Below are positions 1-15,893 of a stretch of 47,941 nt of DNA, in pieces. The notes below the pieces were generated by a model that had not been told where the DNA came from, ran no database searches, and saw only the letters and a program-made list of their open reading frames with translations. The stretch is from a virus. Its lineage: Duplodnaviria; Heunggongvirae; Uroviricota; Caudoviricetes. Position numbers and translations under genes: made by a program. Each line of letters starts with the position of its first letter. Position 1 is the stretch's first letter. The stretch lies in the IMG/VR virus record IMGVR_UViG_2606217105_000017; one strand, 5' to 3'.

Positions 1-1236
1 CTACGATAACCGTGCATTCAACATGGCTACCTGTTCGTCGTTCATGTCATCAATCCACATACCGTAAATTTCATACACCATCTGCGCAGTTTCATGCCCC
101 ATTTGGCTGGCTATAAATGCCGGGTTCGCTCCTGCCGTCAACAGCCAGCAGGCAAAAGTATGCCGCGTATGGTACGGATTACGGCGGCGAATACCAGCAC
201 GTTTTACTGCTGCATTCCACCTTGCCCCCAAACTGCTTACCGAGTAATAAGGTTTTTGTTTTCCGTTACACACCCTGGGCATGAAAACAAAATGCAGTTT
301 TTGCTTTTCGGTTCTGCCGTACTCCCGATGATAAAAGGTGATTTCGCTTTTGCGATGATGCCCGGTCAGTTTGTATTGCTCCTTCAGTGCTTCAAGAGCA
401 GGCTGCAGTAGTGTTACTGTCCGGATCCCGGCATTTGTTTTTGGGGGACCGAACATATCAAGTATCGTCAGGTTTCTTCTGACATTCACTATTCCCTTTT
501 CGAGATCCACATCCTCCCACGCCAGAGCTGCCAGTTCCCCGTGACGAAGTCCTGAGTAAACGGCAAATTTCCACAAGTTCTGGCTCTGTCCTTTTTCACT
601 TTCCATTAATGCATTGAATTCTGTTTTAGATAACGGATCAGGCTTTATTCTGTTTCGCTGTAATTTTTTTACTCCTTCAAATGGTTTGGTTGATATAAAT
701 CCCGACTGATACGCAAAACGTAACAGCGAACAGAGCAGGGCGATATAGTTATCAACTGTGCGTACGGTTCTTCCTTTTTTGTTGGATCTTGGATTATCCA
801 GGTAAAGCGTTTCTCCATGCAGCAGTTCATTCCGGTAATTTAAGATATCGCTATAACGAATATGTGATATCGGGGTACTTTCACAAATTATTATTCTGAG
901 TGTTTTTAATTGTGATTTCGTTTTCTTCATTGTGTTTGTTGTTAACTCTGTTTCTTTAATTTTTGTCCAGATATCACAAAGCTCCCCGAACGTTTTTATG
1001 ACTCTCGTTGTCACCATTTTTGCCCCAGTGCTGGACTGGGGAAAACGTCTTAAATACTCAAATTCACCGGAGTTTATTTCATGAACTATCAGCGCTCTTA
1101 AATTTCCGGCCTTTTTAATATTACTGTTTGTAATCTCCCAGCCTTTTAATGTTTCCCGACATCGTTTTCCTCGAAACATGAACCAGATGCGAATGTATCT
1201 ACCTCTAATCTCGACACCTGTTGGTAATTTAGACAT
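1..1236 (-). CDS. intR: Phage tyrosine integrase, Rac IntR-like (411 aa); complete, stop codon is the first triplet of the window
   Basis: Full ORF with ATG at 1234-1236; C-terminal tyrosine-recombinase catalytic region (..RNPYHTRHTFACWLL..YEIYG..); N-terminus MSKLPTGVEIRGRY recalled as Rac-type integrase. Confidence 0.85.
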   Translation of the reverse strand: MSKLPTGVEIRGRYIRIWFMFRGKRCRETLKGWEITNSNIKKAGNLRALIVHEINSGEFEYLRRFPQSSTGAKMVTTRVIKTFGELCDIWTKIKETELTTNTMKKTKSQLKTLRIIICESTPISHIRYSDILNYRNELLHGETLYLDNPRSNKKGRTVRTVDNYIALLCSLLRFAYQSGFISTKPFEGVKKLQRNRIKPDPLSKTEFNALMESEKGQSQNLWKFAVYSGLRHGELAALAWEDVDLEKGIVNVRRNLTILDMFGPPKTNAGIRTVTLLQPALEALKEQYKLTGHHRKSEITFYHREYGRTEKQKLHFVFMPRVCNGKQKPYYSVSSLGARWNAAVKRAGIRRRNPYHTRHTFACWLLTAGANPAFIASQMGHETAQMVYEIYGMWIDDMNDEQVAMLNARLS

Positions 1237-1237
1237 A

Positions 1238-1453
1238 TCATGATTCTTTGATAAACTGATTTATCTTTGGATAGTTGTACCAGATAATTCCTCGTTTGCT
1301 GTCTGGCTTACCTAAAGGAGATACTCGTTTGAAGTGGAAGCCCTCCACCCAACAGTTCTGGCGGTATGCTTCAATTTGTCTGACCCCCAGACCAGTGCGA
1401 AGCATCAGGCCGTATTCAACCATCCACTCTTCATTAAAGATTACTTGTGCCAT
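1238..1453 (-). CDS. xisR: Excisionase-like small DNA-binding protein (71 aa from internal ATG; ORF track extends to 1477 with a TTG)
   Basis: Immediately upstream of int on the same strand, 2-nt spacing; size and position typical of lambdoid Xis. Confidence 0.6.
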
Positions 1454-1552
1454 CGCATCACCTCTGGCAGGCGCCAATGTTAGACTGAAATTGACGCCCG
1501 ATGTTGATTATTAATAATCAGCTATGAAGTTTTAATTTGAATACAATGCAAC

Positions 1553-1753
1553 TCACGAGGACTGAAGTTTCTCGCAATTGAAATTAATCAGTTTTACTTT
1601 CTGCTCTCTGGAAACTCCTGCTTCTTTTTTACCTGAGAGCATTTTTTCGCATTCTGATTTCGTTAGTTTAGATTTTGAATATCTTGTCCAGTTAGTAGGA
1701 GTGCCACCTTCCTTTTCAATAGTGGCGGTAATTTTATACATGAACATCTCCAT
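1553..1753 (-). CDS. ydaC: YdaC-like small protein (DUF1187-like); alternative start at 1741 has the better SD
   Basis: ORF in Rac-like synteny between xis and ralR; three in-frame ATGs at 1753, 1747, 1741. Confidence 0.5.
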   Translation of the reverse strand: MEMFMYKITATIEKEGGTPTNWTRYSKSKLTKSECEKMLSGKKEAGVSREQKVKLINFNCEKLQSS

Positions 1754-1928
1754 TATTATTTCCAGTGGTTCGTTTATTCCATCTTTCGAGTGCTTCTTTT
1801 TCACTTCCACCATAACCGGTTCGGGATTCGCATGCGTTACACTTCGCTCGGTAATATCCTGAAATGGCTTTCACCGTTACTGATGGACAACCACAAAATG
1901 GACATGGTTTGACTTTTTCATACCGCAT
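1734..1928 (-). CDS. ralR: RalR/Lar restriction-alleviation protein, type I toxin (64 aa)
   Basis: Translation MRYEKVKPCPFCGCPSVTVKAISGYYRAKCNACESRTGYGGSEKEALERWNKRTTGNNNGDVHV, C4 zinc-ribbon, matches recalled Rac RalR; overlaps ydaC 5' end. Confidence 0.75.
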   Translation of the reverse strand: MRYEKVKPCPFCGCPSVTVKAISGYYRAKCNACESRTGYGGSEKEALERWNKRTTGNNNGDVHV

Positions 1929-1991
1929 TGTCTTTTCTCTCATATAATAAAATTTTGTGATGGCGGTGAGGCTACACCGCCAAAGTCAATA

Positions 1992-3095
1992 TTAGGATCC
2001 GATATATTCTGGTTTCATATCTGTCAGTGTCGTTTTATACGCCTCATATAATTCACCCAGATGTGGTCGAGCAGCATTCAGCGTATTTTCCAGAGCAGTA
2101 AATTTTTGTTCTGCTTCTGGATCACCTGATGAAGGCAGGTCATTTATCATCTTCTCGATACTGGCAATAGCATTGAGACGGTGATGACGCCGAACCACTT
2201 TTCCTTTAAGCTCGGCAAAGAATTCGCCGATCTGGTTTTTCTGATCCTCTATCTCTTGGCGTAATGCAGTGGTTTCCTCAGTCGTGGCCGCGCTTTCGAC
2301 ACGCTGCCGGAATTCATCAATCCACGCTTCGTCAATACGCTGTTCGATGGTTTCTGTTCGCTGCTCGCTTACCTCTCTATAATTCTGTACCGGCACAGGA
2401 TTGATGATTTTTTCCTGTGGCTCTTCCAGTTCGTCCGGGGTATACACGCCCAGGATGACGTCAGGACAATAAAGGCGAGCCCAGTATTTCAACGCCAGAT
2501 AGGCGAGCTGTTGTTTCGGGTTTGAGGTCCATAAAGGAGAATTACGCGTAATCACGCTGGAAAGAAACACCGGTTCTCCCCAGGTAATCTCACTTTCACC
2601 GCGAAGAACTGCACCAACTCGAACGGATAGACCATACTCATCTTCACTGGTCCAACATGGGATCGTTTCTTTTTTCTCATAGATTCCGCCTCCTTTGGCC
2701 GTTTTCTTAACGGTCTCCACTCGGGCGCGAGAGCATTTCTCCCAGTCTCCCTCGTACTTGTAATGGAAGCGGCCTACAATTGCACTTGAGCTAGAGATCA
2801 CAGCGTTAACAAGTTGTGCTTCATAACCCAGAACTCCGTTTACCAGGTGTGTTTTCTGAGCCACAGCGTAGGGGTTCATGCCCCATTGCATGGCTTGCAT
2901 GATGATTGCCATGCAGTCGGCAGGTTTTCCGCGAAGGTGATCGGGAACTGTGACGGTGGCCTGTGACATCAACCCGGCTACTTCCTGAAGTTGCGTCAAC
3001 GCCTGAACGTTAAAAATAGTGTTACTGGCAGAAATGGTATTTGGTGTCTGCTCTGTCGTGATGATATTGGTATTTTGCATGGTCAGGTTCTCCAT
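1992..3095 (-). CDS. RecT/Bet-family single-strand annealing protein (367 aa; SD-supported start may be the ATG at 3080)
   Basis: Directly downstream of and translationally coupled to the recE-like gene (TAATG overlap); central ..ADCMAIIMQAMQWGMNPYAVAQ.. segment resembles the RecT/Red-beta core; not identical to K-12 RecT. Confidence 0.65.
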   Translation of the reverse strand: MENLTMQNTNIITTEQTPNTISASNTIFNVQALTQLQEVAGLMSQATVTVPDHLRGKPADCMAIIMQAMQWGMNPYAVAQKTHLVNGVLGYEAQLVNAVISSSSAIVGRFHYKYEGDWEKCSRARVETVKKTAKGGGIYEKKETIPCWTSEDEYGLSVRVGAVLRGESEITWGEPVFLSSVITRNSPLWTSNPKQQLAYLALKYWARLYCPDVILGVYTPDELEEPQEKIINPVPVQNYREVSEQRTETIEQRIDEAWIDEFRQRVESAATTEETTALRQEIEDQKNQIGEFFAELKGKVVRRHHRLNAIASIEKMINDLPSSGDPEAEQKFTALENTLNAARPHLGELYEAYKTTLTDMKPEYIGS

Positions 3096-6000
3096 TAAGC
3101 CAGATGCAGTGCTTCAAGACGACGAAGATCAAAGTCGTTTAATTCGTCGGTATAACTTTCGGTAATCGGTGCTGGCCAGTTGTTTGTCTCTAGGGCTTCG
3201 TTTATCTGGCGTAGCGTCCGGCGATATTCCTGTCGACCAAGTTCCAGGAGTTCCTGCGAGGCTTCCACGACTGCCACCCAGTGATAGCCAACATCTTTGT
3301 TGACGAAGATCCAGAAAAATTTGTCCAGGTTTGCCACATCACAATACATTGCGGCGCTGAGGTGATAATCACGCTCAATAATTTCACGGTGCAGGCGATC
3401 TTTAAGTCGTTCCTGCCGCACATAACCGAGGCTGACTGACTTCACGTCAGCGCAAATGCTTTCGTATGGCAGCCGGATTTCGATATCAGGACGGACCCTG
3501 ATTTCCAGCCCGGTTTCTTCATCAAACCCGAAATAGCTGATTTCAGATTTGCGATCCGGGTGGTTGAGTAGCCTTGCTGTATCGGTATTGTTTTGCAGTG
3601 CCGCGTGAATATTTTTTGCCTGTTCATACATATCCGCACTGATAAACGTTTTCCCGGCGTTTTCTTCTTGCTGTCGTTTTTGCCAGTCCTCCAGTGTCAC
3701 CAGTTCCGGGCGAATTTTCCGTGCGATTTCGGTTAATTGCTCTTTTGTGCCACTGATGTTGTAAGGCAACGATTTAGCACGTTCTTTTTTTGCCAGTTCT
3801 GGATCTACAGTTTCAATTTGCTCCAGAAGCTGCTCCCGTGTTCCACTGGTTTTCAGCAGAGGAGGGAGGCTTGCGTTGTATTCTTTAATACAGGCTTTCA
3901 TTGCTGATGCTGTGTGTTTTTCCCCCTCAGGAATACGCCGAAATTCCTCCGGAAGCGAACCGTAAAGGATGCCTGTTTCTTCGGTCCCAGCGCTTACCGA
4001 CAGTGGCTGTATAAGAGTGCTGTTGTAGCTTTCGATCCACTCTTTCATCTGCTCTGGTGTCATCAGTGATGGCAGACTGGCATTGTATTTTTTAATGATG
4101 GTGATCAGTTCGTTAGAAGTAGTAACCACATATTCAGGAACCGGTACCGGAATGGCATATTCATCAGCGAATTTATCCGTTTCCAGAACGTAGCTGTGAA
4201 TGATCCGCCCACGCAGCAATGCATCACTTTCCTCGTTCGGAATAGTCCCGGCAATGTGCCGCCCGTGGTAATACATCAGACTGATGCGGGCATCCTTCAG
4301 CATTGTGCTGCTTATTCCGTTGGCGGAGTGATAAACCTCGTTCGGGAGGTTTTCATAGCGGCCAGGCTCGAAATATGACGGCCACATGATTTCAGTTGCT
4401 ACATTAGCTGACGCTTCACCAGTTTCATCACTGCAATCGTGATGCGGATGGTTGCCAGCATTCTCCTTGTGTGGATGTTCAGCGCTTTCCATTTCCTCCG
4501 GATCATTTTCCTGAACTTCAACCTGATTCTCTTCATCGAATGTTTCCTGGTATGTTGCGTCGCCCATCACCGCACCACAATCAGGGCAGTTGCCGCCGTC
4601 GGTCTGACCGCAGGCGGCGCAGGCTTTTTCCGGCTCCTGTTGCGTTATTGGCTCGGGTTGTTTCGTTTCTGGCTCGTTTTGTTGCGCATTTCGGCTGTTT
4701 TGTTCCGCTTTCTGGTCGTTCTGTTCCGTTTCTTGCTGGTTCTGATTCACTGAATCGCGGGTTTCAATCCCCTTCACCCATTTCGGATCGTTCGGGTCGC
4801 TAATTCCGTCAACAAATTCACCACGTGATGCAGCAAGTAATTTATCGGCATCGACAGGATTTTTTGATGGAATGTTTTTCCGGGCTTCATGGAGTTCTGC
4901 CCGCAGTTCCTGATATTTCGCATCAACAGAATTTACCTGTGACTGAGCATCCAGCGGCTGCGTGTCCTGATGATGTTCAGTTGCATTCGGTTCCACTGTT
5001 TCAGCCGTTGCCTGTTCATCTGCCATTGCGCCAGATGGTTGTGGCTTTTCTTCATCGTCCTGTTTTCCTTCTTCTGTCACACGCTGCGGCATCGGGGCAG
5101 AGGAGCGACCGCAGGCAATATCCACGATTTCCGGATCAGGGTTGGCATGATCAGTTTCAGTCAGTACTTTGTTCAGATATTCAGTGACGTGCGCGGGGAT
5201 GACCTCGATCCCAATTGGTGCTTCTTTCACGGACGCAACCACGGTGGCGCGGGAATAATCCAGCCCGCCAGGCATGGTGATGAATTTGTCGCGGAAAACA
5301 GAAAAGGGCGGTTTATTTTCAGCGATAATTTCCTCAATGCGTTTAGCGTGTGCCGGATGAAGGTTATAGATGTCCACGTCCATTGAACGGGCCAGTACGC
5401 CAGTGGCTACATCGCGTGCCAGTGACGTCAGATCGTGGACGAAACCTTCGCCGCGATCGGTGAGGTTCCCGCCGCCAGCATTAGCACCGGAAGCCGTGCG
5501 AGTGATGCGTGAAACACGATTCCCTTTCCTCCATTCTTTTGTCAGAAGACCACGATCAATGTGTTCGGTATCCAGCCAGGCTGAAATGAAATTCTTAAAT
5601 TCATAGGGCTGATGTTTTTTCGTGATAGAGAAAACTGCCTTAATTGCATCAGTCAGGCGGAGCAGGGCGGCATTATCCAGAGTTGTCGGTTCTGCCATGC
5701 CGCGTATGGCCAACAGCAGATTCTGGACATAGCTGTTTTCCTGGCCCATCTCAAGAGCAGTAATGTGTTCGCGTTGTTCACGGGTGGCATGATGCAGGTA
5801 TTTCCGATCCCCGGCCGCATACGTAAAAATGTGCAGAAGACGCTGTGTGAACCGCAAAGTGGCTACAGAAACTTCGCAATCCTGGCAATCCCCGTGGGCG
5901 TCTGCCTGCGCGTTTTCTTCCTGGCCTCCCGCCAGTTCTTTGGTTTCCTGGGTATTCTCCTGATGGTGAACGTCGTCTGGTGCTGCACCCGGTTTTAGTT

Positions 6001-6262
6001 CCCAGGTGATGGAGTCCTTGCCGAGTTGATAGCGTTCACACCACGTAAAATCGATCTCACCTTCAGGGGGAAGGTCATTAACGACAGGAAAATTAGTTGC
6101 AACAGTTTTAAAATAGTTGCTCAGTTTTTTACCTGACTTAACGATCAGGTAGTCCAGAGTGGCACTGGTCGATTCAAAATCGTCGCTTGCCCACAGGACG
6201 ACGTCAGGTTCACCGGATGATTTTTTCGCTTTCCGTAAAAGGAAGAGTGGTTTTGTGCTCAT
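3095..6262 (-). CDS. recE: RecE-like exonuclease VIII (1055 aa) with C-terminal PD-(D/E)xK exonuclease domain
   Basis: N-terminus [26 protein letters not shown] and central ..[37 protein letters not shown].. match recalled RecE; acidic linker with CxxC...CPDC motif. Confidence 0.8.
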
Positions 6263-6361
6263 TGTTTTTTAACCTCAACTCAGATTAAAATTACTGCGAG
6301 TGATGAATAAATGTCCCAGGTTCTTCACTCAGGCCTGCACACTGTGCAGGCTTTCTTTTTT

Positions 6362-6637
6362 TCAGATTTCACCGTTTAATTTCATTGCGATCAGAGTTGC
6401 CAGAAATCCAGCTTTTTTTTCTGCGGGCAGATTCTTTCCGATGTGAACCAGGCACATTTTTGTGACACCTTCATCAAGTGTTTTAACGTTGCCTGATGGA
6501 CCGTCGATATCAACCACAGTGAAAGGGGTTTCTTTATTTTCTGTTTTAATCACGTAGCCAATGCGCTTTCCTTCCAGATTCACCTCGTGAACAATGTCAT
6601 CGGTAGTTACAACAGTGGCTTCATAATTGGTAATCAT
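6362..6637 (-). CDS. racC: RacC-like protein (91 aa from SD-supported ATG)
   Basis: Translation MITNYEATVVTTDDIVHEVNLEGKRIGYVIKTENKETPF..; AAGGAG 6 nt upstream of ATG at 6637. Confidence 0.7.
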   Translation of the reverse strand: MITNYEATVVTTDDIVHEVNLEGKRIGYVIKTENKETPFTVVDIDGPSGNVKTLDEGVTKMCLVHIGKNLPAEKKAGFLATLIAMKLNGEI

Positions 6638-6711
6638 GTTTTTCTCCTTAATTAAGGTTGAGCGAATCTCTACCATTTCTGGCATAAATTCAGTTTCGAA
6701 TAGTCAATTAA

Positions 6712-6888
6712 TTAAAGTTCGTGTGCCATCTGGTCTTTTTCGGCACAGATTTCACTACAATATTTTTTCATTTCCGTCGTTGGTATAACTCCACGCATGA
6801 AATGAAGTGGTCTTGTAATGATTTTGCTTTCTTCAATTTCTTTATTGCAAAGGTGATAAGCACATTTTATTTTCTTAGTCATTACCAT
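6712..6888 (-). CDS. ydaE: YdaE-like Cys-rich small protein (58 aa; below the ORF-track size cutoff)
   Basis: Hand-translated [58 protein letters not shown]; start overlaps kilR stop. Confidence 0.55.
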
Positions 6889-7103
6889 GACTCCGCCTTT
6901 ACAGGTAAACCATCACGACCGAGGAAGACTTTAATCATGCAGTCAGAAATGCATGTTTTTGTAGTCAGGCTACGAATATAAAGTTTTCGCTTTTTAATAT
7001 TGTTTGCCGAGGCGATATATGTCCGACCTTCATGAAGAACATAATCGCCAGGGGTCACACACTGACGTGGTATTTCATCAGTTCCGAAGTGATGAGCAAT
7101 CAT
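6882..7103 (-). CDS. kilR: KilR-like FtsZ-targeting killing protein (73 aa)
   Basis: Translation [73 protein letters not shown]; GGAG 6 nt upstream of ATG at 7103. Confidence 0.75.
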
Positions 7104-7511
7104 AATTATCTCCATTTTTACAAATGAATTTTGTCGATGCGGTGCCTGGTGCCTCCAGGTGACGTTAACCAGTTAACAATTAACGCCGGATAATCCACCC
7201 ATAACACTGATGCTTTTAACTGCGCCGCGTGCGCTTAGCCGCATTCACCGCATCACAAAATTCACTTTAAAAAGGGGCGGCAGGGCAGCTACGGAGTAGA
7301 ACTGATGCCGCCAAAAACTAGACACAGCAATGTCGTTATTTACAACCGGAGGCGCACTCCCACCATTTAAATTTAACAGACAAGACCGACTCTTTATGGA
7401 TACCGGAAATGCGCCTTCGTATTGTGCCCGGTTTTATTTCACCACCTCCGGGCTTTGGTGGCCTCGGCTATACCCCTACAGCAAGAATATTGAATTAATC
7501 CAATAAATGGT

Positions 7512-7664
7512 TTAGCTGGTATTTTTGGCAAGCCAGCGACGTGCGCCAGCTTCGGTTTTAAACGATTTGCTTTTGGTATACGTCATGGCGGTGAATGTGC
7601 CGTCCTGATTGGGAAACACGCCACATACCAGAGATTCGTTGTTGCCAAGATCGATAGTATCCAT
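7512..7664 (-). CDS. Small early-left protein, possibly YdaF-like (50 aa from internal ATG; ORF track extends to 7727 via TTG)
   Basis: ORF with GAGG-type SD before ATG at 7664; first gene of the leftward operon. Confidence 0.45.
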   Translation of the reverse strand: MDTIDLGNNESLVCGVFPNQDGTFTAMTYTKSKSFKTEAGARRWLAKNTS

Positions 7665-7871
7665 GTTGACCTCATTTCCCCTTAACGCCGGGTGGCGGAA
7701 CGTTTTATCTACTGCGCTTTGTATCAATCAACAACTGCCGTCATGTTCGTATGCCTCAGGCTGGCTACTTAGCCCTGTTCAGTGGCTGGATAACTCGAGG
7801 TATTGTCCTGCCGTTCTCTGGTGGGGCGTTGTTTGGATATGCTTATTAAACACAACACGTTTTCTTATGTC

Positions 7872-7886
7872 AACACGATATGTGTT
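7872..7886. promoter_or_regulatory. Candidate OL operator AACACgatatGTGTT (15-bp inverted repeat)
   Basis: Perfect 5-bp half-sites; same architecture as two sites in the repressor/cro intergenic region; lies upstream of the leftward operon. Confidence 0.45.
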
Positions 7887-7915
7887 TTATGGTGGGTATC
7901 ATATGATGATGGTAC

Positions 7916-13149: not shown

Positions 13150-13454
13150 AGGCTATAAACCGACTAACAACTAAATACTGAAGATTTAAATCAGAAACGA
13201 TTTTTATTAAATCCTTAACCGGAGGGATTCTGCACCCTCAGAACATCAGGAGGCCGTCTGAAAGGGCGGAACAGATAATGCTTACGTTGAAACATTTTAT
13301 CGACATACCAACATGGTTAGCCGTCATTGCTTTTGTTAAAATACACATCCACTTTTCTGTGCAATGTTTAACCACTGGTCATATCAAATGGCATTCATGC
13401 GAACCATGATATAGAATCATGGCTTGAGAGAGTCGATGAAAGCGCAACTATGGT

Positions 13455-14027
13455 ATGAGAGACATTGATGTAAGAAAGGCTGTGCATGCCAAGATTCTGA
13501 GAGATCATCATAAAGATCCTGACACCCTAATCATTGATGAGTTTACGATGAATCTAGGGGCTAGCAGAGCTGATATAGCAGTGATCAATGGGCTTATACA
13601 TGGTTATGAGTTGAAGAGCAAGAGTGATAACTTGCTCAGATTACCAGCGCAGGTGCAACATTACTCATCAGTGATGGATAAAGTAACGTTGGTTGTCTCT
13701 GATTGCCATCTTTATGATGCTTTAAGCATAGTTCCATCATGGTGGGGGATAAAGCAAGTTACGCAAGGTGCACGGCAAGGTATCCATTTAAAAACAATTC
13801 GAACTAGCAAGTTGAATCCACAAGTGGACAAACTTTCCTTAACAATGCTTCTTTGGAAAGATGAATTGCTTTCCCTATTAAGTGATGTAGGGGAGCTACA
13901 GAATTTGAAAAATAAACCTAAACGCGTCTTATGGTCAAAACTCGCCAATAGTATGGATGTTGGCGAGCTTCGTGAAGCTGTTCGAGTTAAACTTAAAGCC
14001 CGTAAAGAGTGGCGAGTTGCTCAATAA
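13455..14027 (+). CDS. PD-(D/E)xK-type putative nuclease, sce7726-family-like (190 aa)
   Basis: Motif ..DTLIIDEF..RADIAVINGLIHGYELKSKSD.. gives a D...E-x-K core; AT-rich codon usage unlike flanking phage genes. Confidence 0.55.
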   Translation: MRDIDVRKAVHAKILRDHHKDPDTLIIDEFTMNLGASRADIAVINGLIHGYELKSKSDNLLRLPAQVQHYSSVMDKVTLVVSDCHLYDALSIVPSWWGIKQVTQGARQGIHLKTIRTSKLNPQVDKLSLTMLLWKDELLSLLSDVGELQNLKNKPKRVLWSKLANSMDVGELREAVRVKLKARKEWRVAQ

Positions 14028-15090
14028 CCTTAGTTATGTGATGGTTTTGCCCAATCCTACGCCATACCTCTGGGCTACCAAATTTATAGTTACCAGAGGG
14101 ATTGGCTTTGTAGGCTTGATACTCGTTTGCATAATATTCTATGTCTCTATCTCCCGCACAGAATGTAGGCCCTGAATATTCTCGATGAGCAAGAATATCC
14201 TCACTATGTTTACCATATTGTTCATAACCAAAGCGATTAGCTACTCTTCCTCGAAATACCCAAAAGTCATTATCTCCAGAGTATCTGACGCTGGCAGATA
14301 CGCTAGGGAATCGCGTCGAAAGCCTATTAAAGTCGGGGTGCTGTACTCCATAATCACTATAAATCACATTTCTGGCAAGTTCTTTTCTATTCATTAAACT
14401 CTGCCATAAAATCCACTCGATTCGAGGTTGAGAATATAGACCAACAGAAATATCACTGAGATCTGTAGGAAATGAACCCCCAGAAATAATCACTTTCCTG
14501 TATTCATTGAGGTGCGCCAGATTGTTTATCAATCCCATTGCCAAAGTATATAGTTCGCCGGAATTAAGTTTATCCTCGGTTAACTCATCTCTTAAGTCAA
14601 TAATTATATCAATATTTGATAAAGGAATTCCCAGATGATTAATGTAATGCGTTATTAATTGTGGGTTAACCAGATCTAACGTAGTTAATCTCAAGCATAT
14701 TTCATTCTGCATTAATTCTTCAATCGCTCTTTTATAGTTAGATGGGCGAGTTGGTGAACTGACAGGAATAACTCTTATTCCCATATCTCTAACTTGATTA
14801 ACCGCATTCATTATAGGGTAATGATCTTCAGGAGAAATAAAATGCTCTTCAATTAATAATCCATCAATATAAACACCTTGCATATCTGAGCAAGATTTTG
14901 AGACTTTCTTTCCGAACTCTATAAGAGTCTCGTTATAACTCTTTAAGGCAATACCTGAATCAGGGTCAATTGGCACTGGTTCAATTTCGAGTAATGGCAA
15001 AATTTTTGATTTCTTTTCAATGGATAGCTGCGATAAAGCTGATAACTCAGAACGTTTCGCTTTCAGAATAGGAATATATGAAATTGTCAT
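13993..15090 (-). CDS. Beta-protein / sce7725-family-like protein (365 aa), convergent partner of the 13455-14027 gene
   Basis: Long AT-rich ORF; recalled resemblance to the Beta_protein family (P4 beta type); 3' end overlaps the partner by 35 nt. Confidence 0.5.
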   Translation of the reverse strand: MTISYIPILKAKRSELSALSQLSIEKKSKILPLLEIEPVPIDPDSGIALKSYNETLIEFGKKVSKSCSDMQGVYIDGLLIEEHFISPEDHYPIMNAVNQVRDMGIRVIPVSSPTRPSNYKRAIEELMQNEICLRLTTLDLVNPQLITHYINHLGIPLSNIDIIIDLRDELTEDKLNSGELYTLAMGLINNLAHLNEYRKVIISGGSFPTDLSDISVGLYSQPRIEWILWQSLMNRKELARNVIYSDYGVQHPDFNRLSTRFPSVSASVRYSGDNDFWVFRGRVANRFGYEQYGKHSEDILAHREYSGPTFCAGDRDIEYYANEYQAYKANPSGNYKFGSPEVWRRIGQNHHITKVIEQLATLYGL

Positions 15091-15590
15091 GTTAATACCT
15101 TATACAGAATCAATTAACAATTAATGGTTCTTCGGACATTGAAATTTATATCGCAAAAATTGGCAAACTCTCCTCGACTACTCACTTGTGGGTATCCTGG
15201 CGTAAAAGGAATGACTTGGCAATACCCGGTGTGATCATAAGTCATTGAAAATGATCATTTTTATCAGTCTTTCTTCCATGATGAATGCTAATGCCATTTG
15301 ATTTGTTGAGGTGAAAACTATTAAAAATCAAAACGATGTAATTGAAATGAACGTTCGGTAGCATTCACGCTTTAAATGTTTCTTTTGTGCTGATTGGATG
15401 AATTTTGGTCACTTATGATGAGAGATGTTGCAGGAAAAGAAGTTGGCATTGATCTATTGGATAGTTAGAATTGCTGCGGGTGCTTGAGGCTATCTGCCTC
15501 AGGCATGAACACCAAAAGGCAGATAGAGAAAAGCCCCAGTTAACATTACGCGTCCTGCAAGACGTTTAACATTAATCTGAGGCCATATCT

Positions 15591-15650
15591 ATGCGACACA
15601 TAGAGATTAGCCTCTTACGGACCGAAAGGTCAAGGAGAAGCAGGCTATGA
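15591..15650 (+). other. mok-like leader ORF overlapping the hok start
   Basis: Short ORF whose TGA overlaps the hok ATG (ATGA). Confidence 0.3.
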
Positions 15651-15802
15651 AGCAGCAAAAGGCGATGCTAATCGCCCTGATCGTCATCTGTTTAACCGTC
15701 ATAGTGACGGCACTGGTAACGAGGAAAGACCTCTGCGAGGTACGAATCCGAACCGGCCAGACGGAGGTCGCTGTCTTCACAGCTTACGAACCTGAGGAGT
15801 AA
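15647..15802 (+). CDS. hokD: Hok-family type I toxin, HokD/RelF-like (51 aa)
   Basis: Hand-translated MKQQKAMLIALIVICLTVIVTALVTRKDLCEVRIRTGQTEVAVFTAYEPEE; below the ORF-track cutoff. Confidence 0.85.
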   Translation: MKQQKAMLIALIVICLTVIVTALVTRKDLCEVRIRTGQTEVAVFTAYEPEE

Positions 15803-15869
15803 GAGACCAGGCGAGGGAGAAATCCCTCGCCACCTCTCATGTGTCAGGCATCCTCAACGCACCCGCACT

Positions 15870-15893
15870 AAACCCGCTTCGGCGGGTTTTTTG
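15870..15893 (+). terminator. Rho-independent terminator of the hok transcript
   Basis: Hairpin CCCGC-ttcg-GCGGG followed by TTTTTT. Confidence 0.6.

What the first reader, a model, noticed from the sequence alone, without database searches (positions are those of the whole stretch)
13150..15100. AT-rich island with a convergent, 3'-overlapping two-gene module (PD-(D/E)xK sce7726-like plus beta-protein-like): candidate defence or addiction system
Between the replication/nin genes and the Q region sits a compositionally distinct insert. It carries a 190-aa protein with a D...E-x-K nuclease core (RADIAVING..GYELKS) and a 365-aa partner that I recall as beta-protein/sce7725-like. The two genes converge and share 35 nt at their 3' ends (13993-14027), so transcription of each would be antisense to the other's 3' end. 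A hokD toxin locus lies immediately beside it. Position, composition and domain content fit a phage-carried anti-phage or abortive-infection cassette whose mechanism is not established.
Basis: partly seen in the sequence, partly recalled or inferred. Interest (0 to 1): 0.85.

Follow-up and report, generated by a model that had tools for sequence, protein, structure and literature searches.

The report
Prophage beta–cII nuclease gene pair
An AT-rich insert in a lambda-like prophage carries two tail-to-tail overlapping genes, a nuclease and a TIM-barrel partner, which are the shared core of two known anti-phage systems but here stand alone, so this is a likely, still untested, minimal defence cassette.

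Summary
ORFs 13455-14027 (+, 190 aa) and 13993-15090 (-, 365 aa) converge and share 35 nt, inside the lowest-GC stretch of the window (about 13270-15465, GC 0.377 against 0.478), next to hok/sok.

The small protein is a sce7726 / Phage_P4_cII family PD-(D/E)xK nuclease with an intact E29-D40-E52xK54 motif. The large one is a Pfam Beta_protein TIM barrel; it is not a sce7725 member.

The pair is not an orphan. It is homologous to the beta and cII genes of the P4 gop-beta-cII defence system, and the beta protein also matches PD-lambda-2 component C. Neither gop nor PD-lambda-2 A/B is present in the window.

Surveys of 80 genome, 61 viral and 80 metagenome loci show sce7726 almost never without a convergent beta gene. 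All 147 overlapping pairs have an overlap length equal to 2 mod 3, and conserved motifs lie 33 nt apart on opposite strands in 67 of 76 loci. Beta, in contrast, can occur without sce7726.

The pair recurs at accessory-gene sites of P2-like, P4-like and lambdoid elements. The most likely function is a toxin-antitoxin-like anti-phage cassette with the nuclease as effector. This is inferred, not shown. I rate it a new variant of a known kind.

The parts
13270..15465 (.). AT-rich cargo island (about 2.2 kb) holding the two-gene module and its two flanking non-coding regions
   Evidence: GC 0.377 against 0.478 for the window; lowest of 915 sliding windows. Boundaries come from phage vB_EcoS-640R1, which shares window 13206-13269 and 15466-15646 but carries other cargo between them.
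13455..14027 (+). sce7726 / Phage_P4_cII family gene (190 aa): N-terminal PD-(D/E)xK nuclease core (E29, D40, E52-x-K54, Q66) plus a C-terminal helical region
13993..15090 (-). beta family gene (365 aa): divergent TIM barrel with near-invariant Y5, P7, E15, D76, D165, R223, D246, Y270, W343, H351 (true numbering)
13993..14027 (.). 35-nt dual-coding, frame-locked 3' overlap of the two genes
   Evidence: All 147 overlapping homologous pairs have overlap = 2 mod 3. sce7726 W186 codon and beta H350 codon lie 33 nt apart in 67/76 loci. Wobble positions are frozen opposite invariant partner residues.
13937..13970 (-). Candidate intrinsic terminator hairpin for the beta transcript (CTCGCCAA...TTGGCGAG followed by UUUU), embedded in the sce7726 coding sequence; weak evidence
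   Evidence: RNA fold of 13870-14000 (- strand): -29.3 kcal/mol, z -2.66. Not a family-wide feature: 9/111 loci against 3.9 % of control windows.
13388..13417 (+). Promoter-like site (ATGGCA-18-TAGAAT) 38 nt upstream of the sce7726 start; weak evidence
   Evidence: Consensus scan, 9 of 12 matches; the number of such sites in the region equals the shuffle expectation.
15091..15465 (-). AT-rich (GC about 0.35) upstream region of beta. The promoter was not identified, and its two small ORFs (15114-15245, 15242-15364) are not conserved.
   Evidence: the small ORFs and the intergenic DNA are found only in near-identical E. coli copies.
13206..13269 (.). 64-bp junction element shared with an island-less lambdoid phage; marks the left edge of the cargo site
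   Evidence: 93.8 % identity to vB_EcoS-640R1 (L144 3001-3065). In copies L097 and L111 homology to the window begins at about 13206.

Best explanation
The locus is a self-contained two-gene 'beta-cII' cassette, carried as accessory cargo in a Rac-like lambdoid prophage. One gene encodes a Beta_protein TIM-barrel protein; the other encodes a sce7726 / Phage_P4_cII PD-(D/E)xK nuclease. It is the bare core of a family whose elaborated forms are the validated anti-phage systems gop-beta-cII (P4) and, in part, PD-lambda-2. Shown: family membership, an intact nuclease motif, a near-obligate convergent frame-locked pairing, absence of gop and of PD-lambda-2 A/B, patchy distribution, and occurrence at accessory-gene sites of P2-like, P4-like and lambdoid elements. 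Inferred mechanism: the nuclease is the hazardous effector. Beta is the partner it depends on, acting as neutraliser and/or sensor and probably as an enzyme or ligand-binder. Infection by another phage upsets this balance, so the nuclease cuts nucleic acid and infection is aborted or excluded. The tail-to-tail overlap forces co-inheritance. Because most loci lack a terminator between or within the genes, each mRNA is likely to be antisense to the other's 3' end, giving reciprocal control of expression.
For: Identity: (HMM and BLAST matches to sce7726, PADLOC cll, Beta_protein and PD-Lambda-2_C). RefSeq names the genes the same way in 93 of 5426 complete E. coli genomes. P4 itself has beta and cII convergent. 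Validated relatives: gop-beta-cII protects against lambda and P1, and gop is toxic without beta (PMC9122126); it is triggered by phage orf184 (bioRxiv 10.1101/2023.04.06.535777); PD-lambda-2 needs its beta-like C for defence (PMC9519451). Nuclease competence: E29, D40, E52, K54 and Q66 in 110/110 sequences; nuclease fold. Beta looks enzyme-like: TIM barrel with near-invariant Asp/Arg/His that fall at or just after predicted strand ends when compared with the secondary structure. Dependency asymmetry: sce7726 has a convergent beta in 77/78 pairs from the genome survey (window included) and in 55/55 intact viral loci, whereas 8 of 24 PD-lambda-2-type loci with room have beta but no sce7726. Portability and location: between Rz and Nu1 in another lambdoid prophage; beside a P4-type primase with Abi_2, Fic or HNH genes nearby; between the portal gene and gpA in P2-like prophages; near a type II R-M pair; lowest-GC segment of the window. 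No third conserved gene.
Against: No experiment exists for the two-gene form. The validated systems each contain additional toxic components (Gop; PD-lambda-2 B), which are absent here. The PD-lambda-2 clone extends only about 396 bp beyond gene C, so defence there probably did not need sce7726. One viral contig (L114) has beta split by a rearrangement while sce7726 is intact, which argues against beta being an indispensable antitoxin, although it is a single case. Promoters were not convincingly identified, and antisense regulation is inferred only from geometry. Beta has no specific structural relative, so its chemistry is unknown. P4 cII is traditionally labelled a 'regulatory protein' in database names.
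Confidence: 0.55

Rival explanations
1. Restriction-modification-like pair. Beta is a TIM-barrel enzyme that modifies DNA or a nucleotide pool on the host or prophage, and sce7726 is the cognate nuclease that cuts unmodified invading DNA. The convergent layout would then resemble that of many type II R-M systems.
Against: The DNA-enzyme hits rank no better than dozens of unrelated TIM barrels, and Foldseek TM-scores normalised to the query are at most 0.41. In P4, beta neutralises Gop, a 133-aa protein whose N-terminal half is largely hydrophobic (sequence), not a nuclease. Beta is required for PD-lambda-2 defence in a clone that probably lacks a complete sce7726 gene. Beta also occurs without sce7726. 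No methyltransferase or known base-modification domain was detected.
Confidence: 0.12
2. A pure addiction (post-segregational killing or stabilisation) module that keeps the prophage or satellite in the host, with no role against other phages.
For: Toxin-antitoxin-like dependency asymmetry. It sits beside another addiction-type locus, hok/sok. It is always carried on mobile elements.
Against: The two characterised relatives both give phage resistance. The cassette occupies variable accessory-gene sites of the elements rather than maintenance regions. The convergent architecture does not fit classical co-transcribed type II toxin-antitoxin operons.
Confidence: 0.12
3. Roles reversed. Beta is the effector enzyme, and sce7726/cII is its DNA-binding regulator or sensor, for example recognising phage DNA ends or structures and thereby activating or repressing beta.
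For: P4 cII homologs are named 'regulatory protein' in some databases. sce7726 has a C-terminal helical region in addition to the nuclease core. sce7726 is the slower-evolving partner (mean pairwise identity 0.46 against 0.33). Beta alone (with A/B) appears sufficient for PD-lambda-2 defence.
Against: A full catalytic PD-(D/E)xK motif is kept in 110/110 sequences, which is unusual for a purely regulatory protein. In P4, beta behaves as the protective partner, not the toxic one. The partner that never occurs alone is sce7726.
Confidence: 0.1
4. A phage-beneficial DNA-processing function in the nin region (recombination, repair, or counter-defence), not an immunity function.
For: Neighbouring nin-region genes include the putative nuclease YbcO. 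sce7726 tends to be co-directional with the flanking phage genes. The best structural match, 3dnx, is an uncharacterised protein, and one homolog is labelled MmcB-like DNA repair protein.
Against: The pair is present in only 93 of 5426 complete E. coli genomes, although lambdoid prophages are common. It sits at several unrelated positions in different elements. It is also chromosomal and fused to toxin-antitoxin-like PD-lambda-2 A/B operons in many phyla. It is compositionally foreign.
Confidence: 0.08

Closest known systems
P4 gop-beta-cII anti-phage system (DefenseFinder Rst_gop_beta_cll; PADLOC gop_beta_cll; Rousset et al. 2022, PMC9122126)
   Same: Homologous beta (Pfam Beta_protein) and cII (sce7726 / Phage_P4_cII) genes in the same convergent orientation, carried as cargo of a mobile element.
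   Different: There is no gop gene anywhere in the window. The proteins are only 23 % and 28 % identical to the P4 ones. The window's beta hits the PADLOC 'beta' model only at E 5.4e-5. P4 cII has an extra C-terminal region of about 75 aa. The P4 genes are separated by 27 nt containing an annotated terminator, rather than overlapping. The carrier is a lambdoid prophage, not a P4 satellite.
PD-lambda-2 (Vassallo et al. 2022, PMC9519451): HigB-like A, Xre-M78 peptidase B, beta-like C
   Same: The window's beta is closer to PD-Lambda-2_C models (E 3.2e-42 and 8.8e-39) than to P4 beta. Many PD-lambda-2-type loci in other phyla also carry a convergent, frame-locked sce7726 gene: 15 genome loci and 16 metagenome loci.
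   Different: Components A and B are absent from the window. The published system is defined without a sce7726 gene, and 8 of 24 such loci with room truly lack one.
NCBIfam sce7726 / sce7725 neighbouring families of unknown function
   Same: The 190-aa protein is a clear sce7726_fam member. The literature mentions sce7725 and sce7726 proteins together in genomic islands without giving a function.
   Different: The partner here is a Beta_protein, not a sce7725_fam member: 12.4 bits against a cutoff of 60, sharing only the N-terminal 35 residues.
Convergently arranged type II restriction-modification systems and enzyme-antitoxin toxin-antitoxin systems (analogy from general knowledge)
   Same: A PD-(D/E)xK nuclease that never occurs without a specific enzyme-like partner, in tail-to-tail gene order on mobile elements.
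   Different: No methyltransferase or known modifying domain was found. Beta also partners non-nuclease toxic components (Gop, PD-lambda-2 A/B). No chemistry has been demonstrated.

Membership tests
NCBIfam NF033832 sce7726_fam / Pfam PF26915 Phage_P4_cII | Profile score above the curated cutoff over the full length | tested here: met
   191.1 bits against a cutoff of 70, profile positions 1-183 of 184. Homologs as close as 99 % identity (P0001) carry precomputed PF26915. The local Pfam copy lacks that model.
PD-(D/E)xK nuclease superfamily | Core fold with acidic residues and lysine in the D...(D/E)xK arrangement | tested here: met
Pfam PF14350 Beta_protein | Profile score above the gathering threshold over the full length | tested here: met
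   179.4 bits against 27, profile positions 1-341 of 342. RefSeq annotates the 99.8 % identical locus as 'beta family protein'.
NCBIfam NF033831 sce7725_fam | Profile score above the curated cutoff (60 bits) | tested here: not met
   12.4 bits, E 0.096, N-terminal 35 residues only.
gop-beta-cII system (P4 type) | Presence of a gop gene directly upstream of beta | tested here: not met
   tblastn and phmmer with P4 Gop find nothing near the module; the best hit in the window is E 0.02-0.06 at 19.8-20.2 kb. No gop in 80 genome or 61 viral loci.
gop-beta-cII system (P4 type) | cII-type and beta-type proteins matching the system's models | tested here: inconclusive
   PADLOC 'cll' E 2.4e-28 is met. 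PADLOC 'beta' reaches only E 5.4e-5 over residues 4-41. The P4 proteins score 8e-113 and 8e-188 on the same models.
gop-beta-cII system (P4 type) | Convergent beta / cII gene order | tested here: met
   P4: beta 651-1718 +, cII 1746-2540 -. Window.
PD-lambda-2 system | HigB-like component A and Xre-M78 peptidase component B upstream of C | tested here: not met
   Profiles built from verified A and B homologs (PADLOC E 1.5e-32 and 2.8e-140) find nothing in the six-frame translation of the window (best E 0.18-0.22).
PD-lambda-2 system | Beta-like component C | tested here: met
   PADLOC PD-Lambda-2_C E 3.2e-42 and 8.8e-39.
Anti-phage defence system (functional class) | Reduces phage plating or aborts infection when expressed | not testable with these tools
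   Only indirect support: validated relatives and location at accessory-gene sites. PADLOC and DefenseFinder system-level calls were not run. From my own knowledge of their model definitions, an incomplete gene set would not be called.
Classical type II toxin-antitoxin operon | Co-directional, co-transcribed toxin and antitoxin genes | tested here: not met
   The genes are convergent with a 3' overlap, as in 147 of 150 surveyed pairs.

The most novel reading that the evidence does not exclude
The beta-sce7726 pair is an autonomous, very widespread two-gene anti-phage system that current defence-finders miss. The sce7726 family alone has 5365 representatives at 50 % identity, across many phyla. 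In this reading, beta is a new kind of TIM-barrel enzyme that senses infection or licenses effectors, and serves as a common hub for interchangeable effectors (cII nuclease, Gop, HigB/Xre-peptidase). The ancient frame-locked antisense overlap is itself the regulatory switch: a change in read-through or convergent transcription during infection or prophage induction tips the nuclease/beta ratio.
Probability: 0.2. Interest if true: 0.8.

Novelty: new variant of a known kind. Interest (0 to 1): 0.6.

Why it matters
If the bare pair is active, four things follow.

1. It defines the minimal core of two defence systems, gop-beta-cII and PD-lambda-2, that are currently catalogued as unrelated. It also recasts them as one hub (beta) with swappable effectors.

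2. It adds a widespread candidate system that, as far as I know, neither PADLOC nor DefenseFinder would call. It occurs in prophages, in P2-like and P4-like elements, and in chromosomes of many phyla.

3. It offers a clean genetic model, two genes in 2.2 kb in E. coli, for finding out what the uncharacterised Beta_protein TIM barrel does.

4. It provides an unusually deep example of a conserved dual-coding antisense overlap, whose regulatory meaning can be tested directly by uncoupling the genes.

For annotation, it shows that the 'sce7726 family' and 'beta family' labels hide a probable defence module.

Tried and rejected
1. A degraded gop gene upstream of beta: tblastn, phmmer and three-frame inspection of 15091-15646 found none.

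2. A hidden small third gene. The ORFs 13278-13409 (+), 15114-15245 (-) and 15242-15364 (-) are found only in near-identical E. coli copies and are absent from relatives at 60-72 % identity. Rejected.

3. The 'partial beta' cluster P0155 (215 aa, 123 member sequences) as evidence that beta is often truncated: it is a contig-end artefact.

4. An embedded intrinsic terminator as a conserved feature: 9/111 and 4/111 loci against 3.9 % of control windows. The window's own hairpin is kept only as a weak candidate.

5. Promoter prediction: the number of promoter-like sites equals the shuffle expectation, so it is uninformative.

6. Recovering the validated ECOR42 PD-lambda-2 locus to see whether a sce7726 gene lies downstream. 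The protein search with a PD-lambda-2B homolog returned more than 7000 hits, with no E. coli entry among those listed. Only the clone coordinates were obtained.

7. Ghisotti et al. 1990, the original P4 gop/beta/cII paper, is not held in the library, so statements about cII come from secondary sources.

8. A PADLOC/Pfam census of about 150 neighbour ORFs was abandoned. Naive ORFs in high-GC loci are unreliable and the input was too large. It was replaced by annotated contexts from the look-up of encoding contigs.

9. Sequence searches of the PDB found no solved relative of either protein.

10. Literature searches on sce7726, sce7725 and PF14350 found only passing mentions.

11. Numbering slip: alignments A2 and A4 and the beta model lack Met1, so their residue numbers are true numbers minus 1. 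The report uses true numbering for beta (noted).
Full report
OBSERVATION. ORF 13455-14027 (+) encodes 190 aa. ORF 13993-15090 (-) encodes 365 aa. They converge and share 13993-14027, which is 35 nt. Both are genuine genes. The small protein scores 191.1 bits on NCBIfam sce7726_fam (cutoff 70). The large one scores 179.4 bits on Pfam Beta_protein (cutoff 27), covering profile positions 1-341 of 342.

The region is compositionally foreign. The island 13270-15465 has GC 0.377 against 0.478 for the window and is the lowest of 915 sliding windows of its length. GC3 is 0.30 for beta and 0.36 for sce7726, against 0.48-0.55 in the DUF977, DUF1367, YbcO and DUF1627 genes; the two small ORFs just to the left are also fairly low, at 0.32-0.41. 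A hok/sok locus follows immediately: sok RNA at 108 bits, 15478-15649, and hok at 15647-15802.

A 99.8 % identical stretch in E. coli strain 214-4 is annotated 'sce7726 family protein | beta family protein'. It lies between replication genes, DUF1627, DUF977 and two small genes on one side, and hokD, DUF1367, DUF1364 and DUF1133 on the other. The only deposited phage with the full module is Rac-SA53.

The 365-aa protein is not a sce7725 family member: 12.4 bits against a cutoff of 60, over the N-terminal 35 residues only.

BOUNDARIES AND CONTENT. Phage vB_EcoS-640R1 shares window 13206-13269 and 15466-15646 but carries about 1.1 kb of unrelated small genes between them. The site just upstream of hok/sok is therefore a cargo-exchange spot, and the insert runs from about 13270 to 15465.

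Nothing else in the insert is conserved. The three small intergenic ORFs and the intergenic DNA itself occur only in near-identical E. coli copies, not in relatives at 60-72 % identity. The conserved unit is exactly the two genes.

WHAT THE PROTEINS ARE. In an alignment of 38 sequences the sce7726 protein has invariant E29, R38, D40, N45, G46, E52, K54, S55, D58, R62 and Q66. Across 111 non-redundant pairs, E29, D40, E52, K54 and Q66 are present in all 110 full-length sequences.

Its near-invariant residues, in true numbering, are Y5, P7, E15, D76, D165, R223, D246, Y270, W343 and H351. Set against the predicted secondary structure, the Asp and Arg residues fall at or just after the ends of predicted strands. 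By general knowledge that is the catalytic face of TIM barrels, so beta looks like an enzyme or ligand-binder rather than a passive antitoxin. This is an inference.

RELATION TO KNOWN SYSTEMS. PADLOC models gave the key lead: sce7726 hits 'cll' (E 2.4e-28), and beta hits 'PD-Lambda-2_C' (E 3.2e-42) but 'beta' only weakly (E 5.4e-5).

In P4 (NC_001609), gop lies at 247-648 (+), beta at 651-1718 (+), and cII at 1746-2540 (-). RefSeq labels cII 'sce7726 family'. So beta and cII are convergent in P4 as well, separated by 27 nt that hold an annotated terminator. The window proteins are 23 % identical to P4 beta (E 2e-9) and 28 % identical to P4 cII (E 2e-17).

Three experimental results bear on these relatives.
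- gop-beta-cII protects E. coli against lambda and P1, and Gop is toxic without beta (PMC9122126).
- Its toxicity is triggered by a phage accessory gene, orf184 (bioRxiv 10.1101/2023.04.06.535777).

The window contains no gop and no A or B homolog.

NEIGHBOURHOOD SURVEYS. Three surveys were run.

(i) With the sce7726 alignment as query, 410 species-representative genomes encode a relative, and 80 loci from many phyla were fetched. In 77 of them a beta-family ORF lies immediately downstream on the opposite strand. Of the other three, two are cut by contig ends. The third, Xenorhabdus L011, has a kinase-like ORF instead.

(ii) With beta as query in viral contigs, 55 of 61 loci have the convergent sce7726. 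The other six have disrupted or truncated beta genes or are contig ends. None has gop or A/B.

(iii) With PD-lambda-2B as query in metagenomes, 30 loci have A+B and no beta, 16 have A+B+beta plus a convergent sce7726, and 8 have A+B+beta but no sce7726 despite at least 1 kb of room.

In the genome set, 15 of 77 pairs are preceded by a verified PD-lambda-2B. Nine of these also have HigB-like A, and five have a DUF6932 protein in its place. The rest have no recurrent third gene.

Two conclusions follow. First, the bare pair is the commonest form in these samples, and the only form seen on viral contigs. Second, the dependency is asymmetric: sce7726 essentially never occurs without beta, but beta can occur without sce7726.

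The sce7726 family is large, with 5365 representatives at 50 % identity at E <= 1e-3 and 3315 at E <= 1e-10.

THE OVERLAP. The convergent 3' overlap is a family trait, not a quirk of this window. Counting the window together with the 77 genome loci, 76 of 78 pairs overlap, by 11 to 158 nt. All 55 viral pairs and all 16 metagenome pairs overlap as well.

Every one of these 147 overlaps has a length equal to 2 mod 3. The first base of the sce7726 W186 codon and the first base of the beta H350 codon are exactly 33 nt apart in 67 of 76 loci. Eight of the remaining nine differ by multiples of 3. So the conserved C-terminal cores of the two proteins abut tail-to-tail on opposite strands.

The overlap is truly dual-coding. 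sce7726 codon 188 is highly variable as an amino acid (entropy 2.94), but its third base is nearly fixed (0.50). The third bases of beta codons 360 and 363 (0.43 and 0.36) are frozen where, by the codon register read from the sequence, they face the second bases of invariant W186 and R183.

The two proteins track each other in divergence (Pearson 0.87 over all pairs, but only 0.27 among the more distant pairs), and beta evolves faster: mean pairwise identity is 0.33 against 0.46 for sce7726.

Embedded intrinsic terminators are not general: 9/111 and 4/111 loci, against 3.9 % of control windows. In most loci each transcript must therefore either run antisense into its partner or be stopped by Rho. 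This is an inference. In the window, a hairpin at 13937-13970 on the minus strand, followed by UUUU, is a weak terminator candidate for beta.

GENOMIC CONTEXT. The near-identical module occurs in 93 of 5426 complete E. coli genomes. Diverged versions occur in five other settings.
- Between the lysis genes and terminase Nu1 of other lambdoid prophages.
- Next to a P4-type primase in elements that carry Abi_2, Fic or HNH genes nearby.
- Between the portal gene and gpA of P2-like prophages in Serratia.
- Beside an Ogr/Delta remnant in Vibrio.
- 4.5 kb from a type II R-M pair in Acinetobacter.

[quoted passage not shown] By my own knowledge of P2 genome layout, the portal-gpA position corresponds to that region, but cos was not located in these loci.

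HOW IT MOST LIKELY WORKS. The shown facts are the identity of the two proteins, the nuclease motif, the near-obligate frame-locked pairing, the modularity, and mobile-element carriage at variable accessory-gene sites.

The inferred model is this. sce7726 is the hazardous effector, because it is the partner that never occurs alone and it keeps a complete catalytic motif. Beta is the hub it depends on, because it is protective towards Gop in P4, required for PD-lambda-2 defence, and able to exist without sce7726. Infection disturbs beta's control, and the nuclease then acts, giving abortive infection or exclusion. The overlap guarantees co-inheritance and probably lets each transcript act as antisense to the other. 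I put this at about 0.55 overall, with the antisense and enzymatic details much less certain.

Evidence against the model:
- No phenotype has been measured for the two-gene form.
- Both validated relatives contain other toxic proteins.
- The PD-lambda-2 clone extends only about 396 bp past gene C, so it probably lacked an intact sce7726.
- One contig (L114) has a disrupted beta with an intact sce7726.

The rivals are an R-M-like pair, a pure addiction module, reversed roles, and a phage-beneficial DNA-processing function. They are listed with the tests that would separate them.

NOVELTY AND VERDICT. The genes are already named by RefSeq, and the convergent beta/cII pair has been in the P4 sequence since 1990, so this is not categorically new. 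To my knowledge and in the literature I could search, four points are new:
- a stand-alone two-gene form that is widespread and occurs at variable accessory-gene sites of several mobile elements;
- the link showing that many PD-lambda-2-type loci carry a fourth, convergent cII-type gene, which unites the two catalogued systems around a beta hub;
- the asymmetric dependency between the partners;
- the deep, frame-locked dual-coding overlap.

I classify it as a new variant of a known kind, with interest 0.6. It is well above ordinary, because it is a compact, testable route to the unknown biochemistry of the Beta_protein family and to a probable unrecognised defence system.

Noticed in passing
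window 15478-15892: A complete hok/sok-type type I toxin-antitoxin locus lies immediately right of the island: Rfam sok at 108 bits (15478-15649), hok ORF 15647-15802, and a terminator-like hairpin at 15870-15889. The hairpin is overlapped by a sub-threshold isrK match (31 bits against a gathering score of 50).
   Followed up: partly
window 13206-13269 and L144 (ON470612) 3001-4346: The same site in phage vB_EcoS-640R1 holds a different cargo of about 1.1 kb (three small ORFs plus a minus-strand ORF annotated 'hornerin'), between a shared 64-bp element and hok/sok. The spot upstream of hok is therefore a cargo-exchange hotspot.
   Followed up: partly
L145 (E. coli SA53-3) 1707-2401; phage Rac-SA53 KU052037: An IS1 element is inserted in the non-coding region just upstream of sce7726. 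Both genes remain intact, but the native sce7726 promoter region is possibly altered.
   Followed up: partly
L157-L236 (metagenome loci): HigB-like A plus Xre-M78 peptidase B pairs occur without any beta gene in 30 of 54 loci with enough room. A/B is therefore a stand-alone module, and beta (with or without sce7726) is an optional addition. The B family is very large: at least 7050 protein clusters (90 % identity) at E <= 1e-10 among the 8000 candidates scored.
   Followed up: partly
L039, L047, L078, L081, L082 (second ORF upstream of beta, e.g. L082 8879-9394): In five PD-lambda-2-type loci a DUF6932 protein (weak PADLOC PDC-M63A hit) occupies the position of the HigB-like component A.
   Followed up: no
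L011 (Xenorhabdus koppenhoeferi) 6001-7000: This is the only genome locus with enough flank where sce7726 lacks a beta partner. The downstream ORF contains an HRDLKPxN-type protein-kinase motif instead.
   Followed up: no
L114 (IMGVR_UViG_2531839440_000004) 4442-7905: Beta is split near window coordinate 14400 by an inversion or insertion, while sce7726 stays full-length. It is a single natural case of the nuclease gene without an intact beta.
   Followed up: partly
L237/L238 (Serratia), L150-L152 (E. coli), L153-L156 (Enterobacteriaceae), L241 (Acinetobacter), L239 (Vibrio): Diverged copies of the pair occupy several positions: between portal and gpA in P2-like prophages, between Rz and Nu1 in lambdoid prophages, next to a P4-type primase with Abi_2, Fic or HNH genes nearby, 4.5 kb from a type II R-M pair, and beside an Ogr/Delta remnant.
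   Followed up: yes
viral loci L083-L143 and window flanks: sce7726 tends to be co-directional with the surrounding phage genes, with beta antisense to them: 45 of 64 flanks are more than 70 % co-directional. Read-through from phage operons would then favour sce7726 and oppose beta. The sample is not phylogenetically independent.
   Followed up: partly
window 13993-15090 (-), residues 5-39: NCBIfam sce7725_fam shares only the N-terminal 35 residues with beta. This suggests that sce7725 proteins are a distant or mosaic relative that pairs with sce7726 in other lineages (for example Leptospira, PMC12457778).
   Followed up: no
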